A stretch of 64,000 nucleotides of DNA from the human T2T-CHM13v2.0 reference genome, Homo sapiens, in NCBI RefSeq assembly GCF_009914755.1, contig NC_060926.1. One strand, 5' to 3'. The position numbers and the translations under genes are program-made. Positions 28,591 to 35,134 of the stretch are shown here, one piece after another. The notes beneath the pieces are model-generated. The model was given only the letters and a program-made list of their open reading frames with translations, was not told the DNA's origin and did no database searches. The first letter of the stretch is position 1; each line of letters begins with the position of its first letter.

Positions 28591-28797
28591 GTGATTTTAA
28601 AAAATTCATTATTTGATTGTTTTTTTGTTAGGTGTTTTAGATAGAAATTAATCATATGCTATATAAAGAGAAATCAAAACTGCCTTTTATTGTTGAGTTT
28701 ATGAAGACAAAACTAGCCCAATTTTTTCAGACTTACTGAAACTAATCTTTAATATAGTATTTGTTGAAAAGTTAGAAATTTTAGGAAGTGGCTAACT

Positions 28798-29166
28798 ATG
28801 GCGACCGCCACGGAGCAGTGGGTTCTGGTGGAGATGGTACAGGTGCTTTATGAGGCTCATGCTTACCATCTTATTTTGGAAGGGATTCTGATACTCTGGA
28901 TAATCAGACTTCTTTTCTCTAAGACTTACAAATTACAAGAACAATCTGATCTTACAGTCAAGGAAAAAGAAGAACTGATTGAAGAGTGGCAACCAGAACC
29001 TCTTGTTCCTCCTGTCCCAAAAGACCATCCTGCTCTCAACTACAACATCGTTTCAGGACGGAGTCTTGCTGTGTCACCAGGCTGGAGCGCAGTGGTGCGA
29101 TCTCGGCTCACTGCAACCTCCACCTCCTGGGTTCAAGCCATTTTCCTGCCTCAGCCTCCCGAGTAG
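28798..29166 (+). pseudogene. SPTLC1: SPTLC1 processed pseudogene fragment: 87 N-terminal codons (to 29057) read into Alu, giving an open 122-aa frame
   Basis: [47 protein letters not shown]...NYNIVSG matches the recalled SPTLC1 N-terminus with ~3 substitutions; homology ends at c.260, the exon 3 end as recalled. Confidence 0.92.
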
Positions 29167-30589
29167 CTGGGACTACAGGCACAAGCTACCATGCCCGCCT
29201 AATTTTTGTGTTTTCAGTAGAGACGGAGTTTCACCATGTTGGCCGGAACGATCTCGATCTCCTTTTTTTTAATTAAAAAGTAAACTTTAATGTCGAAAAT
29301 GCAAACTTGGGGAAGGCAGAAAGATCACACACAAGGCTGTCACTTCACACTTGGAAGGTTGCGCAGTAGCTGGGCAGAGACGCTCCTCACTTCCCAGATG
29401 GTGAGGGGGCCGGGTAGAGGCGCTCCTCACTTCCCAGACGGTGCAGGGGCTGGGCAGAGGCGCTCCTCCCTTACAAACAGTGAGGGGGCCGGGCAGAGGT
29501 GCTCCTCACTTTCCAGACAGGGCAGTGGCTGGGCAGAAGCGCTCCTCACTTCCCAGATGGGACGGTGGCCAGGCAGAGGCGCTTCTCATTTCCCAGACGG
29601 TGAGGAGGCGGGGCAGAGGCACTCCTCACTTCCCAGATGGGATGGTGGCCAGGCAGAGGCGCTCCTCATTTCCCAGACGGTGAGGAGGCGGGGCAGAGGC
29701 ACTCCTCACTTCGCAGACAGGATGGTGGCTGGGCAAAGGTGCTCCTCACTTTCCATACTGTGAGGCGGCCGGGCAGAGGTGCTCGTCACTTCCCAGATGG
29801 GGTGGAGGCCGGGCAGAGGCGGTGCTCCTCCTCAATTCCCAGATGGTGGGCAGCTGGGCAGAGGCGCTCCTCACTTCCCAGACAGGGCAGTGGCCAGGCA
29901 GAAGCGCTCCTCACTTCCCAGAGTGTAAGGGGGCCGGGCAGAGGCAGTCCTCGATTCGCAGACAGGATGGCAGCCGGGCAGAGGCGCTCCTCACTTCCCA
30001 GACAGGGCGGCGGCCTGGCAGAGGCACTTCTCACTGCCCAGACAGGGCAGGGCCCGGGCAGAGGCGCTCCTCACTTCCCAGACTGTGAGGCAGCCGGGCA
30101 GAGGTGCTCGTCACTTCCCAGAGAGGGCGGGGGCCGGGCAGAGGCGCTCCTCACTGCCCAGATGGTGCGGTGGCCAGGCAGAGGCGCTCCTCACTTCCCA
30201 GACGGTGGAGTAGCCGGGCAGAGGCGCTTCTCACTTCCCAGACAGGGTGGCGGCCTTTCAGAGGCACTCCTCACTGCCCAGACGGGGCAGGGCCCGGGCA
30301 GAGGCGCCCTTCACTTCTCAGACTGTGAGGCGGCTGGGCAGAGGCGCTCGTCACTTCCCAGAGAGGGCGGGGGCTAGGCAGAGGCGCTCCTCACTGCCCA
30401 GACAGTGCGGTGGCCAAGCAGAGGCGCTCCTCACTTCCCAGACGGTGGAGCAGCCGGGCAGAGGTGCTCCTCACTTCCCAGATGGTGCAGGCAGAGATGC
30501 TCCTCAGGTCTCAATCTCTTGACCTCCTGATCCGCCCACCTGGGCCTCCCAAAGTGCTGGATTACAGGCGTGGGCCACCATGCCTGCCC
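29058..30589 (-). mobile_element. AluSc-like element split into 29058-29262 and 30507-30589 by the SVA2 insertion
   Basis: Begins at acggagtcttgct, just after the usual antisense-Alu acceptor AG; resumes gacctcctgatccgcccacc...tgcctgccc after the VNTR. Confidence 0.9.
29263..30506 (-). mobile_element. SVA2-type VNTR retroposon (~28 x 40-bp units, unique 3' tail, poly(A))
   Basis: T8, then aattaaaaagtaaactttaatgtcgaaaatgcaaacttgggg...cacttcacacttggaagg (recalled SVA2 3' end reversed), then gggcagaggcgctcctcacttcccagacgg repeats; TSD gatctcgatctcct (29250-29263) / ggtctcaatctctt (30507-30520). Confidence 0.85.
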
Positions 30590-31812: not shown

Positions 31813-33207
31813 TTTGAGCGAGTTGTGCACAGACGAAACTAAGGGTCAGAAGCGGAGAGGATACTCCTAAGTCACCCACTTCTCTGTGGCTGGGTGCACA
31901 CTGGGCATCTGGGAGTTTATGACATCACCATGGGGCTGGTGACAGAGCCAGGGTGTGGAGGAGTGCTTAGGAGCCCAGCGAGGGTGCCTGCAAGAGGAGT
32001 CAGAGGGCAAAGGGTGAGACCCTTCCACCGGTCCAGCTGGACTCTAGCCTCAGGGACGTCCTGCTCCTGGGGGCAGGTGTGTGGCCCTGGATGGGCCCCC
32101 CGTGGGGCTGTTGGGGGTGTGGGGCTGATCCGCCAGAGCCCTTCTGCCTGGCGCCTGGCCCAGGTGCTGGCTGGCACCCAGTGGCCCTGTCTTGGCCGGC
32201 CCCGTCCCCCGGGTTACAGGGCCAGAACCTGGAAGCAGAGCGCAGGACCAGCCAGATCCCGCCAGGCTCCCCCGGGGCCTCTCCAGTGCCTCTGTGCCGC
32301 CTGGAGCCAGGCCCGCCTTCTCCATGGCTGCTGTGGCCTCAAGGGCCACCAGCCTCGCTCCGCAGGTTTCCAAAGAGAGGACGCGGTGCCCTGACCTGAC
32401 TGGATGCACCTCTTACCACATGCCTCCCTGGCAGGCAGGGTCTCCACTTTTTACAAATTTGCCTGAGACCATTCCTCAGGTCATTCAGGTGGTCATGGCC
32501 CAGCCAGGCTTTGAACCCGGGCTGTGCGATTCCACAGCTGGCGCTCTGGCCTGTGTGCCTCATGATCATGGATACAGCATCTATTCTTATTTTTTCCTGT
32601 AGTCCTGGGGTACTTAGCACCATGGCATATCTGTAATAAGCACATGCACACCTCGAAGGAGGTCTTCACTTCAACATACAAGTTGACCATGGCATGCTCT
32701 GGGCTCCAGTCCTCTACAAAGATGTAGGGCAGGAACTACCAGTTGTCAGCACAGCACCATCCCACATTGCTCTTCTAATGGAGCCTTTCACCCCAGATGT
32801 TCTTTCTCGTCTGATGGGAAGGATCCAAGTATGTAAAGATTATGTTCTAGATCAGCTTTGGTCTGTCCTAAAAGAAATTTGCCAGTGGATTATTCCATAT
32901 GGATAAAAGTCAGTTTCTCTGGTCTTCCTGGAATGTGTCTAGAAAGCAAATACATTATTTACAAGTTCATAGTAGATCAATGTATTGGATTAAAATATGA
33001 TAAACATAATTTGGTTGTTGTGAGCATGCCAGCTTGGTCAACTATTCACCACACACATGATGCCCTAAATATAACTCTAGGTTTTCTTATGCCCAAGAGA
33101 GGGACATACTCTTGGGTGTCTGGACTAGGGAAACATGTATGAAAAACCATTTGGCCACTCTACATCTTGTTATTGGAGAATTGAAACCATCTATATTCAA
33201 AGATATT

Positions 33208-33213
33208 ATTAAA
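33208..33213 (+). terminator. ATTAAA polyadenylation signal of the retrocopied transcript
   Basis: 12 nt upstream of the A tract; lies in sequence resembling antisense L1M ORF2. Confidence 0.7.
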
Positions 33214-35134
33214 AGGCAAGAAGTTAAAAAAAAATTTTCAGACTGGAAAAAAAAGGGAGGACCACTTGACTCTGGTCATAATTTGGCACCTCCATTCTGA
33301 AAACCTGACTTCTCTTATTCCATTGGTTGTTCTCAGATTGCATTTAACCACCATTTTCTTGCTAAGTGTGATGAGAAAAACAAATTGATGGGATAATTCT
33401 TAAGAGCCTATTGTAGGATCACTTCTGGGCTGACAGTATTTCTAGACCTTCTTTCCTCTTTCAATTTTTGCTAACTCACTAGGATGGTTTGGCTGAAATA
33501 CGCATTCTGTAACACTGGGTACTTAAAGAAAATGAGGACTATTTATTGGAAGTACTTAAAAAGAGAGAGAAAGATAGAGATGGCCCCAGGACAGAAAGTT
33601 CAGGCATGCTTCCTCTCTAGCGAGAGGTAGCTTATGATGACAGTTTTCATGATCCTTGTAGTCCCATGGCTGAGCTCTGTGGATCCCTGTCTTAGTCTCA
33701 GGTAAAACCAAAGGAAGAGGATTGGTCATGGAAGACTGTGCACCGAAATGATTGAAATGCCAACATCTACCTTAGAGGTTAGTCTTCGAATATATTCTCC
33801 TCACTCCTACCCTCTCTCCCAGAGAGAGGAACCAGCTTCTCACTGGAGCCTGTCTTCCAGCTACAGAAGTGGGGCCTGGTCGCTATACACTCAGTTCCTT
33901 TGCTTTACTTATGGAGGCAAGCTTAATAAATGAAAACAAAATGTTTTCTGGCTCACATATATTTTCCATAAAACTTATTAAAACAAAATTTGTTTTGTAT
34001 AAACTTTGAGCCCTTATGTACTCTATTCTCTGAACTCTGAACATGTCAATTGACGTTGCCTTTTTTCAAGAGAAATTATTGTGTTCAGAAGAAAATCTGT
34101 AGTATACGTGTTTTCCTCTGTTTATCCCAACCCATAAGGTTTGATAATCACAAGAAAAACTTTGAGAAACATCTTAATTGATAGATTATAGAGAGGAGCA
34201 GATCCAAGATATTCAAGCTATTTGTGAGGTTTTGATGACATCAAGGGAGTATTACAACCAGGTCCGAGGAATGCCCAAGTTCTATTTGGCCAGTTGCTTT
34301 TCCTTCCCTTCCTTGTGAGGAAGATTTACCTCTTCTAGCACAGGAAAAATAAGGCTTAAATTTTCATGATCCTTTATGCAGGGCTCTCTGGTAAAGCTGA
34401 GCCAGAGAATATGACTTAGACTGAAAATCCCAGCAGAGCCTTTCCAAACCCCACCCTCCATCCCTGCCCAGTTTGAGTCTGAACACTGAACCTTTAGAAC
34501 AGCTAGTCCTAAAGGGATAGCTGTAGTGCAGAGCAGGTGAGAGAGAAAACAAGAGGCTAGGTTCACCTATCTATTCTAATGGCAGGAGGTTGCCAGCTAC
34601 AAAAAACTAACAACAGTTTGGCCAGGCCTACATTTGGATCAATCTACTTGGAAAGAATTACATTCTCTTAGGGAAAAGTAGGAGAATCAGTGGAGAGAAG
34701 GGACAAAAATCACTTATGCCCAACTAGACCTTGTTTCTGAGATTCTGATTCATTTGGTGTGTGGAGCCTGTGCATCAGTGGTATCTTAAACTCTCCCAAT
34801 TTTAGTGTCCCTTCAAAATTAAGAGCTACTGTTGTATCATCATTGAACACCTCAGAGGAAACTGAGGCCCAAGGTCACATTGTTAGGAAACTTGGCTTCA
34901 AATGTAGGTATTTTCATTTTGGGTATAATGAATTTTTCTACCATACGTATTAGACTATGTAAAGAGTTTTGTGACTGTAGTAACTTCTCTTCATAAGACA
35001 GTTGTCAGAAATAGTCTATATTTTTCATCAGTTCTTGTATGTCTTTCTACAACTCCTTCCCAGTTATGTGACTTTCTAATTTAGATGTGAAAATGAGGGT
35101 ACTTGAATTGATTAACTTTAGTGAAAAGGATGGT

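What the first reader, a model, noticed from the sequence alone, without database searches (positions are those of the whole stretch)
28783..33238. Composite retro-cassette: SPTLC1 exons + exonised Alu + SVA2 VNTR + antisense NPAP1-like gene, moved as one mRNA
Seen: an intron-free SPTLC1 5' end joined exactly at ...TCAGG|ACGGAGTCTTGCT to an antisense Alu whose poly-T/AG is missing (a splice junction), then ~4.2 kb of GC-rich sequence, ATTAAA, an A tail and a short TSD. Inferred history: an NPAP1-like retrogene, an Alu and then an SVA2 accumulated at a source locus, probably an SPTLC1 intron. The Alu became the acceptor of an alternative terminal exon, and L1 machinery copied that transcript here. 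The layout (host exons, antisense Alu, VNTR, cargo, polyA) parallels SVA/LAVA composites, but the VNTR is reversed and the cargo is a whole ORF with its upstream region. I recall several SPTLC1 pseudogenes and several near-identical UPF0607 entries in human. If these are the same cassette, it acts as a small non-autonomous element family dispersing a gene. The parts are probably annotated separately; the unit may be under-described.
Basis: partly seen in the sequence, partly recalled or inferred. Interest (0 to 1): 0.8.

Follow-up and report, generated by a model that had tools for sequence, protein, structure and literature searches.

The report
SPTLC1–Alu–SVA2–UPF0607 retrocopy, one of ten
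This 4.45-kb block is a reverse-transcribed copy of an unusual SPTLC1 messenger RNA that carried a backwards NPAP1-like gene along with it, and the same RNA was pasted into the human genome about ten times from a single source.

Summary
Window 28783-33234 is an L1-type processed retrocopy. It has SPTLC1 exons 1-3 without introns, joined at 29057/29058 to an antisense Alu, followed by a 4.2-kb terminal exon, ATTAAA, a nine-A tail and a 7-nt target-site duplication (TSD).

The unspliced source lies in SPTLC1 intron 3. Exon 3 ends at a GT donor, and 2.27 kb further on the Alu's T-run plus AG supplies the acceptor. The source has no A tail.

This assembly holds 9 full-length copies, each with different flanks, tails and 5' ends. 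Eight of the 9 have clear, different TSDs. There is also one older 5'-truncated copy. The canonical SPTLC1 3' end has no second copy anywhere.

The tree is a star that includes the source, which fits one master locus and gives no sign that daughter copies moved again.

The cargo is not a whole gene. It is the first ~396 codons of an NPAP1-like gene, ended by a stop codon inside the Alu, plus ~1.4 kb of its upstream DNA. Five of 9 copies keep the 416-aa open reading frame (ORF). That is more than a rough neutral model predicts, yet residue changes look neutral.

I found no paper that describes the unit. Ages and empty sites in other primates could not be tested here.

The parts
28776..28782 (.). 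5' target-site duplication, AAATTTT
   Evidence: The script match to 33232-33238 is exact over 7 nt. The bases before it read TTAG, so the site resembles an L1-endonuclease target.
28783..28854 (+). SPTLC1 exon 1 (5'UTR, ATG at 28798)
   Evidence: Matches C9:104281800-104281872 on the minus strand. The start lies in the SPTLC1 transcription-start region. The exon boundary is good to about 2 nt.
28855..28962 (+). SPTLC1 exon 2
   Evidence: Matches C9:104278941-104279051 at 97%. The boundary is good to about 2 nt.
28963..29057 (+). SPTLC1 exon 3, ending at the splice junction
   Evidence: Matches C9:104275227-104275323 at 100%. In the source the exon is followed by a GT donor.
29058..29262 (-). 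Antisense Alu, the part next to its A tail. Its first base follows the AG acceptor used in the source.
   Evidence: In the source this sequence is preceded by a T-run and 'gag'. There is a Metazoa_SRP sub-threshold hit on the minus strand. It matches other Alus in the fetched loci at 80-85%.
29263..30506 (-). SVA2-type element inserted in the Alu: A8 tail (read as T8 on +), ~100 nt unique 3' end, and a 40-bp-unit VNTR at 29372-30492
   Evidence: TRF finds period 40 and 27.9 copies. The unique 3' end is dispersed, with at least 172 candidate loci of which 40 were scored at 92-100%. Independent copies have their own TSD and A tail. The flanking ~13-nt Alu duplication is visible. The name follows the description in PMC4432496.
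30507..30589 (-). Remainder of the same Alu (its 5' end). It supplies the last ~9 codons and the stop codon of the minus-strand ORF.
   Evidence: Sequence read. Metazoa_SRP hit on the minus strand. The chr10 paralogues show the two Alu parts as one continuous Alu.
30562..31812 (-). UPF0607 / NPAP1-like ORF, 416 aa, antisense to the retrocopied RNA
   Evidence: ORF listed. Pfam POM121 match at E 2.7e-22. Overlaps the annotated pseudogene LOC100420887 in the hub's table. It is 67% identical in DNA to the locus at C15:22.41 Mb, which holds a 1156-aa ORF.
31813..33140 (-). Upstream region of the NPAP1-like gene, carried along with it
   Evidence: Collinear homology at 73-77% to the region upstream of the 1156-aa ORF at C15:22.41 Mb. 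CpG observed/expected is 0.35 and CpG loss equals that in the ORF, so it is not a protected CpG island.
33208..33213 (+). ATTAAA polyadenylation signal, 12 nt before the cleavage site
   Evidence: Read. All 10 retrocopies are polyadenylated at or 6-10 nt after the same point, while the source runs on without A's.
33226..33234 (+). A tail of nine A's, overlapping the 3' TSD at 33232-33238

Best explanation
Window 28783-33234 is a processed, L1-mediated retrocopy of an alternative SPTLC1 mRNA. In the parent gene, exons 1-3 were spliced to an AG acceptor. That acceptor was created by the T-run end of an antisense Alu 2.27 kb into intron 3. The transcript then ran through a ~4.2-kb terminal exon to an ATTAAA signal.

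Everything in that terminal exon is antisense passenger DNA:
- the Alu;
- an SVA2 element that had landed in the Alu;
- the first ~396 codons of an NPAP1-like (UPF0607) gene, which the Alu had truncated;
- ~1.4 kb of that gene's upstream region.

L1 machinery copied this RNA into an APLF intron. The same RNA from the same master locus was inserted at least nine times full-length in one short period, and once earlier in truncated form. The canonical SPTLC1 mRNA left no retrocopy.

Shown: the anatomy, the source locus, the splice sites, the independent insertions and the star phylogeny. Inferred: the involvement of L1, the age of roughly 14-26 My, and the idea that the RNA was an unusually good L1 template.
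For: 1. Source locus. SPTLC1 exons 1-3 lie at C9:104.28 Mb. The cassette's 3' part lies in the same gene and on the same strand. Exon 3 is followed by a GT donor. The Alu is preceded by a T-run and 'gag'. After the cleavage point the source continues without an A tail.

2. Copies. Nine of the 13 matches to the exon 1-3 query are full-length cassette copies. The other four are the 3 true exons and one exon-3-only duplicate.

3. Independent insertions. In 8 of 8 other copies, homology to the window stops at the cassette ends. Flanks, tails and 5' ends (0 to about -27 within the SPTLC1 start region) all differ. Eight of 9 copies have clear TSDs of 7-18 nt, all different. A tenth copy (C8:36.6 Mb, ~11% diverged) starts inside the VNTR and has its own 11-nt TSD and A tail.

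4. Tree. The 9 copies, the source and one segmental duplicate radiate from one node with 100/100 support. The only inner pair scores 82/92. Shared derived sites are few and scattered, and some are shared with the source itself.

5. No canonical retrocopies. The SPTLC1 last coding exon was identified as residues 443-473, 100% identical to PDB 6m4n_A. A 2552-nt query holding its end plus the downstream ~2.4 kb matches only itself in the genome.

6. Whole family. All NPAP1-like copies at 95% identity or more are these 9, the source and the duplicate.
Against: - One copy (C6:23.72 Mb) has no convincing TSD.
- No RNA evidence was available, so the exon 3-to-Alu isoform is inferred only from the retrocopies and the splice signals.
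- The genome search scores only its best candidates, so very short or very old truncated copies, and short canonical retrocopies, could have been missed.
- The age rests on branch lengths of 0.014-0.026 and a recalled neutral rate, in a CpG-rich stretch that evolves fast.
- A segmental duplicate at C9:94.58 Mb also carries exon 3, the intron and the cassette. It lacks exons 1-2, so it is an unlikely source, but it sits in the same star.
Confidence: 0.92

Rival explanations
1. A self-propagating composite retrotransposon family, SVA- or LAVA-like, in which daughter copies are transcribed and copied again.
For: The unit is multi-copy and 9 of 10 copies are full-length. Its layout of host exons, antisense Alu and VNTR recalls SVA-F1. 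One pair, C13 and C6:64.37 Mb, groups at 82/92 and shares an upstream start and a later cleavage site.
Against: The tree is a star with the SPTLC1 locus inside it. No subset shares more than 3 derived sites, and those are CpG sites. Every copy starts in the SPTLC1 start region with no transduced flank and carries no upstream promoter. The VNTR is reversed relative to the A tail and there is no hexamer repeat.
Confidence: 0.05
2. A chimera made by reverse-transcriptase template switching from one RNA to SPTLC1 mRNA, rather than by splicing.
For: Chimeric retrocopies of this kind are known in human (recalled, not tested here).
Against: The junction lies exactly at the exon 3 donor and at an AG acceptor. 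The two parts lie 2.27 kb apart, on the same strand of the same gene. All 9 copies share the identical junction.
Confidence: 0.015
3. Processed pseudogenes of NPAP1/UPF0607 mRNA, as the annotation names suggest, that happen to lie next to SPTLC1 pseudogenes.
For: The RefSeq row calls 30362-31887 a UPF0607 pseudogene. PMC4436662 calls NPAP1P6 a processed pseudogene of NPAP1 (passages).
Against: The A tail, ATTAAA and TSDs bracket the whole unit on the strand opposite to the ORF. On the ORF's own strand, the only A run downstream of the ORF is the SVA2's. The ~1.4 kb upstream of the ORF is also copied.
Confidence: 0.01
4. Segmental duplications of one original insertion.
For: Unspliced genomic duplicates of the source do exist, at C9:94.58 Mb and C9:100.01 Mb.
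Against: For the 9 spliced copies, homology ends at the cassette ends. Tails and 5' ends differ in all 9, and TSDs differ in the 8 that have one.
Confidence: 0.005

Closest known systems
SVA-F1 (MAST2 exon 1 spliced into an SVA) and other exon-trapping 5'-transduced SVAs
   Same: Host 5' exon(s) are joined by splicing to an acceptor in antisense-Alu sequence, a VNTR follows, L1 does the copying, and insertions are mostly full-length. SVA structure and the full-length bias come from passages of PMC3287187. The MAST2 details are recalled.
   Different: Here the acceptor is an ordinary intronic Alu. The VNTR (SVA2) is reversed relative to the RNA. There is no hexamer repeat or SINE-R. The 3' domain is an antisense gene fragment with its upstream DNA. 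Copies come from one master with no subfamilies.
VNTR composites LAVA, PVA and FVA of gibbons
   Same: They are composites of Alu-like sequence, a VNTR derived from SVA2, and a captured 3' domain from a host locus (abstract and passages of PMC4432496).
   Different: Those elements keep the VNTR in sense orientation and amplify to many copies with subfamilies. This unit has 10 copies and a star tree.
Ordinary processed pseudogenes of mRNAs with an Alu in the 3'UTR
   Same: One source locus, intron loss, an A tail and a TSD. Alus embedded in 3'UTRs are over-represented in parent genes of processed pseudogenes, especially weakly expressed ones (abstract of PMC5199112).
   Different: The copied isoform is a minor, Alu-exonised one, and the canonical mRNA left no copy. 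The terminal exon carries an antisense ORF with its upstream region.
UPF0607 / NPAP1 / NPAP1L family of POM121-derived genes (Neumann et al. 2014, PMC3942032)
   Same: It is the same gene family: Pfam POM121 match and homology to the C15:22.41 Mb locus with a 1156-aa ORF. The paper notes that UPF0607 is primate-restricted, intronless and duplicated.
   Different: The main text does not contain the words SPTLC1, SVA or Alu (0 occurrences each). The vehicle of the recent UPF0607 spread is therefore not described there. Its supplementary tables were not opened.

Membership tests
L1-mediated processed retrocopy (processed pseudogene) | Introns removed exactly at the parent gene's splice sites | tested here: met
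   Three exon blocks are contiguous in the window but lie 2.7-3.6 kb apart in the gene. A GT donor and a T-run/AG acceptor sit at the fourth junction.
L1-mediated processed retrocopy (processed pseudogene) | A tail that is absent from the source, placed after a polyadenylation signal | tested here: met
   ATTAAA lies 12 nt before the tail. The source continues without A's. Tails are present in 10 of 10 copies.
L1-mediated processed retrocopy (processed pseudogene) | A target-site duplication that is different at each insertion, with unrelated flanks | tested here: met
   Eight of 9 full-length copies have clear TSDs of 7-18 nt and one is unclear. The truncated copy has an 11-nt TSD. Flanks are unrelated.
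L1-mediated processed retrocopy (processed pseudogene) | An empty target site in outgroup species | not testable with these tools
VNTR composite retrotransposons (SVA, LAVA, PVA, FVA) | VNTR in the same orientation as the element's own A tail, preceded by a hexamer repeat and an Alu-like region | tested here: not met
   The VNTR and its unique 3' end point away from the cassette's A tail, and no hexamer repeat is present.
VNTR composite retrotransposons (SVA, LAVA, PVA, FVA) | Amplification from multiple source copies, giving subfamily structure | tested here: not met
   Star tree with 8 of 10 inner branches unresolved. No diagnostic shared sites.
SVA2 | A 39-40-bp-unit VNTR followed by a unique 3' sequence and an A tail, dispersed with TSDs | tested here: met
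   Period 40. The 3' sequence has at least 172 candidate loci. Two independent copies have a TSD and A tail. The definition comes from passages of PMC4432496. No repeat library was available to confirm the name.
POM121 / NPAP1 / UPF0607 | Match to the POM121 family profile above its curated cut-off | tested here: met
   PF15229 at 80.1 bits against a cut-off of 27, residues 154-358.
Functional retrogene (cargo under selection) | Purifying selection on the protein sequence | tested here: not met
   Pooled dN/dS is 1.20. Under a context-aware mutation model, 259 of 331 changes are non-synonymous against 0.722 expected.
Functional retrogene (cargo under selection) | Reading frame kept open more often than chance allows | tested here: inconclusive
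   Five of 9 ORFs are intact against 1.47 expected (P=0.008). Two nonsense changes were seen against 7-8.6 expected. The model is rough and was calibrated on 1474 non-ORF sites.

The most novel reading that the evidence does not exclude
The SPTLC1-Alu-SVA2 RNA was a preferred L1 template, an independently assembled proto-composite. Its 5' module of host exons spliced onto antisense Alu next to a VNTR mimics the part of SVA that drives mobilisation. That would explain 10 copies (9 full-length) against none for the canonical mRNA. It would also have seeded the genome with promoter-proximal, ORF-bearing UPF0607 genes whose frames have been kept open by selection while their residues evolve freely or adaptively.
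Probability: 0.2. Interest if true: 0.7.

Novelty: new member of a known kind. Interest (0 to 1): 0.45.

Why it matters
- It unites two sets of separately named human pseudogenes (SPTLC1P and NPAP1P/UPF0607) into one retrocopy family with one source.
- It corrects the reading that the NPAP1-like copies are processed pseudogenes of NPAP1 mRNA. They travelled backwards inside another gene's transcript.
- It gives a clean natural example of a gene fragment duplicated by retroposition together with its own upstream DNA.
- The 10-to-0 contrast between an Alu/VNTR-bearing minor isoform and the canonical mRNA of the same gene is a natural experiment on what makes an RNA a good L1 template. It can be tested with existing retrotransposition assays.

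Tried and rejected
- Fuzzy-regex anchoring timed out and was replaced by blastn-short.
- VNTR arrays were aligned to look for lineage signal. Lengths range from 7 to 1215 bp, but the alignment is ambiguous and gave no usable grouping.
- A Pfam PF00155 scan of the genome for canonical SPTLC1 retrocopies scored only 9 of 54 candidates, and these could not be assigned to a parent gene.
- A first DNA query with the SPTLC1 3' region was swamped by two Alus. The repeat-free part was then used.
As a result the limits of the C9:94.58 Mb duplication and the wider context of C9:100.01 Mb were not mapped.
- The upstream region was tested as a protected CpG-island promoter and rejected: observed/expected 0.35, with CpG loss as in the ORF.
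- Literature searches returned no paper on the unit. SPTLC1+SVA2 gave 0 papers. SPTLC1+retrocopy gave 0. SPTLC1+pseudogenes+retrotransposition gave 0. In the SPTLC1+exonisation search none of the 10 listed papers contained SPTLC1. SPTLC1+SVA gave 6 papers, none on retrotransposons by title or abstract start. UPF0607 gave 3 papers. Subscription journals and supplements were not covered.

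
Full report
**1. What is in the window.**

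- The block starts at 28783 with SPTLC1 5'UTR and has its ATG at 28798.
- The first 86 codons match residues 1-86 of human serine palmitoyltransferase 1 in 83 of 86 positions (PDB 6m4n_A, E 1.6e-49).
- At 29057/29058 the SPTLC1 sequence joins an antisense Alu.
- That Alu (29058-29262 and 30507-30589; weak Metazoa_SRP hits on the minus strand) is split by a minus-strand element. The element has an eight-base tail run (29263-29270), ~100 nt of unique 3' sequence, and a VNTR at 29372-30492 with period 40 and 27.9 units.
- A 416-aa ORF runs on the minus strand from 31812 to 30562. It matches Pfam POM121 at 80 bits against a cut-off of 27. Its last codons and its stop codon come from the Alu.
- On the plus strand, ATTAAA (33208-33213) is followed 12 nt later by nine A's.
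- AAATTTT flanks the block on both sides, at 28776-28782 and 33232-33238.

**2. The source.**

The window's own genome could be searched.
- The exon 1-3 query (275 nt) gave 13 matches. Nine were full-length at 96-100%, including the window. Three were separate exons at C9:104.28 Mb on the minus strand, which is the real SPTLC1 gene. One was an exon-3-only match at C9:94.58 Mb.
- The cassette's last 626 nt gave 11 full-length matches at 97-100%, including the window. One of them lies 5.3 kb beyond SPTLC1 exon 3 on the same strand.
- At that locus exon 3 is followed by a GT donor.
- 2.27 kb further on, the Alu is preceded by its T-run and 'gag', so the retrocopy junction falls exactly after an AG.
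- After the cleavage point the source continues with ordinary sequence and no A tail.

**3. Copies.**

Eight other loci carry the whole unit: C10:31.39, C8:27.29, C6:23.72, C16:66.15, C1:151.2, C13:76.88, C9:28.16 and C6:64.37 Mb.
- In all 8, homology to the window (with 500-bp flanks) stops at the cassette ends.
- Their flanks and A tails differ. Their 5' ends fall between 0 and about -27 within the SPTLC1 start region.
- Two copies were cleaved 6 and 10 nt later, and those extra bases match the source.
- A script found clear, mutually different TSDs of 7-18 nt in 8 of 9 copies. C6:23.72 Mb has none that convinces.
- A tenth copy at C8:36.6 Mb is ~11% diverged. It starts inside the VNTR, ends at the same cleavage point with an A-rich tail, and has an 11-nt TSD. 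It is an older, 5'-truncated retrocopy of the same kind of transcript.

Unspliced genomic paralogues also exist.
- C9:94.58 Mb has exon 3, the intron and the cassette, is 3.6% diverged, and is homologous along the whole fetched stretch.
- C9:100.01 Mb is 8% diverged and is homologous from 466 bp before the Alu to more than 1 kb past the cleavage site.
- Older relatives without the Alu or SVA2 lie at C9:99.98, 92.52 and 92.02 Mb and at C15:22.41 Mb.
- The C15 locus holds a 1156-aa ORF. I take it to be NPAP1 from its chromosome 15 location and ORF length; the length is recalled.

**4. One master or re-mobilised copies.**

I built a tree on 3032 non-VNTR columns.
- The 9 copies, the source and the C9:94.58 Mb duplicate radiate from one node with 100/100 support.
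- Eight of 10 inner branches are unresolved. The only pair is C13 with C6:64.37 Mb, at 82/92. These two also share the upstream start and the later cleavage site.
- Pairwise distances among the 11 sequences are 2.98-4.77% over all sites and 1.41-3.17% at non-CpG sites.
- Shared derived sites are few. No group shares more than 3, and those are CpG sites. The few non-CpG ones join some copies to the source itself.

This is what a single, slowly changing master predicts. Nothing indicates daughter lineages, and no copy carries flank from another copy.

Terminal branches of 0.014-0.026 would mean very roughly 14-26 million years at a recalled rate of about 1e-9 per site per year. This is an inference and could not be checked against other primates.

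**5. Isoform bias.**

The stretch C9:104196500-104200500 encodes, on the gene's strand, SPTLC1 residues 443-473 with 100% identity. It therefore holds the last coding exon and the 3'UTR. A 2552-nt repeat-free query covering the end of that exon and the ~2.4 kb after it matches only itself in the genome.

L1-type copies start from the 3' end. So the canonical mRNA has left no detectable retrocopy, against ten for the Alu-exonised isoform, nine of them full-length. The search scores only its best candidates, so very short or very old copies could be missed.

Two published observations bear on this, though neither was tested here.
- Alus embedded in 3'UTRs are over-represented in parents of processed pseudogenes (PMC5199112, abstract).
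- SVA RNAs are preferred L1 substrates, insert mostly full-length, and lose activity when the hexamer and Alu-like 5' region is deleted (PMC3287187, abstract and passages).

**6. The cargo.**

The minus-strand ORF is not a whole gene.
- In the source, ~440 bp of further NPAP1-like coding sequence lies just beyond the Alu. It is 75% identical to the inside of the C15 ORF. It sits in the part of the intron that is spliced out.
- Three chr10 loci (88.26, 51.54 and 80.73 Mb) are 97-98% alike. They hold the ORF's 3' part, the same Alu uninterrupted with its own 14-nt TSD, and the continuing gene body.
- This shows the order of events: gene, then Alu, then SVA2. It also provides an empty SVA2 site.
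- The unique 3' end of the inserted element is a dispersed repeat. It has at least 172 candidate loci, of which 40 were scored at 92-100%. Independent copies have their own TSD and A tail. This fits the published description of SVA2 (PMC4432496, passages).
- The ~1.4 kb beyond the ORF's start codon (31813-33140) is collinear at 73-77% with the region upstream of the C15 ORF. So the gene's upstream DNA travelled with it.
- That upstream DNA is not a protected CpG island. Its observed/expected ratio is 0.35, and 12-50% of ancestral CpGs are lost per copy, as in the ORF.

**7. Is the cargo under selection?**

- ORF status: the 416-aa frame is intact in 5 of 9 retrocopies. One has 407 aa, from a stop at codon 408. 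Three have frameshifts. It is also broken in the source and in the C9:94.58 Mb duplicate.
- Pooled dN/dS against the star's centre is 1.20, from 71.5 synonymous and 259.5 non-synonymous changes.
- I also used a mutation model with separate CpG-transition, transition and transversion rates, taken from the 1474 non-ORF sites. Under it the non-synonymous share is 259 of 331 against 0.722 expected (p=0.014, ratio about 1.4). It is equally high in the broken copies. So there is no purifying selection on residues.
- Against that, the same model expects 1.47 intact ORFs among the nine, with P(5 or more)=0.008. It expects 7-8.6 nonsense or start-loss changes, where 2 were seen.
- The indel rate in the ORF (9 events) is not clearly lower than outside it (15 events).

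I treat the open-frame signal as suggestive only.

**8. What it is and is not.**

It meets every testable criterion of an L1-mediated processed retrocopy.

It does not meet two defining features of VNTR composite retrotransposons: the orientation of the VNTR, and amplification from multiple sources. So it works partly like SVA-F1 (exon trapping onto antisense Alu, mostly full-length insertions) but is not a member of that family.

The RefSeq row and one paper treat the NPAP1-like parts as pseudogenes of UPF0607 or NPAP1 (PMC4436662, passages; PMC5408686, passages). The strand of the tail and the TSDs shows that they were passengers in an SPTLC1 transcript.

Neumann et al. 2014 describe the UPF0607 family. 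Their main text contains none of the words SPTLC1, SVA or Alu (PMC3942032, abstract and passages). Their supplements were not opened.

None of my ten literature searches found a paper describing the unit. The library lacks most subscription journals, so prior description elsewhere cannot be excluded.

**9. Verdict.**

It is a new, well-documented member of a known kind, with three features of moderate interest:
- antisense hitch-hiking of a gene fragment together with its upstream DNA;
- a 10-to-0 isoform bias in retrocopying;
- more intact frames than a rough neutral model predicts.

Noticed in passing
L061-L063 (C10:88.26, 51.54 and 80.73 Mb), locus positions ~805-1560: There are three near-identical (97-98%) chr10 copies of an older NPAP1-like fragment. 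They carry the same Alu without the SVA2, the Alu's own 14-nt TSD, and gene sequence continuing beyond it. This is a natural 'empty site' for the SVA2 insertion. The fragment begins at the window equivalent of 31028.
   Followed up: partly
window 30679-30729 and 31029-31082: A ~52-nt inverted repeat (91% identical) lies inside the NPAP1-like ORF and was seen in every young copy. The chr10 fragments start exactly at the inner edge of one arm.
   Followed up: no
L041 (C9:94576305-94585650): A segmental duplicate of SPTLC1 exon 3, intron 3 and the cassette. It is homologous along the whole 8 kb compared, is as old as the retrocopy burst, and lacks exons 1-2. Its limits were not mapped.
   Followed up: partly
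L043 (C9:100006961-100016096): An older unspliced paralogue (8% diverged) with the Alu, the SVA2, an extra ~330-bp insertion and a longer 498-aa open frame. An inverted, more distant relative lies 35 kb away at C9:99.98 Mb.
   Followed up: partly
window 28409-28590 versus 28783: The retrocopy sits 193 bp after an APLF coding exon, on the same strand. It places an ATTAAA signal and Alu-derived acceptor-like sequence in sense orientation within the APLF intron. Any effect on APLF transcripts is unknown.
   Followed up: no
window ~33137-33225: The last ~85 nt before the cleavage site match about 20 dispersed loci at 75-82%. The polyadenylation region therefore seems to derive from an old interspersed repeat.
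   Followed up: no
window 29074-29201: Sub-threshold Rfam hits to mir-3135 and mir-1268 (about 41 bits against cut-offs of 80-83) fall inside the Alu. I read them as Alu-derived look-alikes, not miRNA genes.
   Followed up: no
literature lead; chromosome 9 copy not identified: PMC4436662 reports a chr9 piRNA cluster processed from the strand antisense to 'NPAP1P6'. That would be the SPTLC1-sense strand of a cassette-type copy. Which locus this is was not determined.
   Followed up: no
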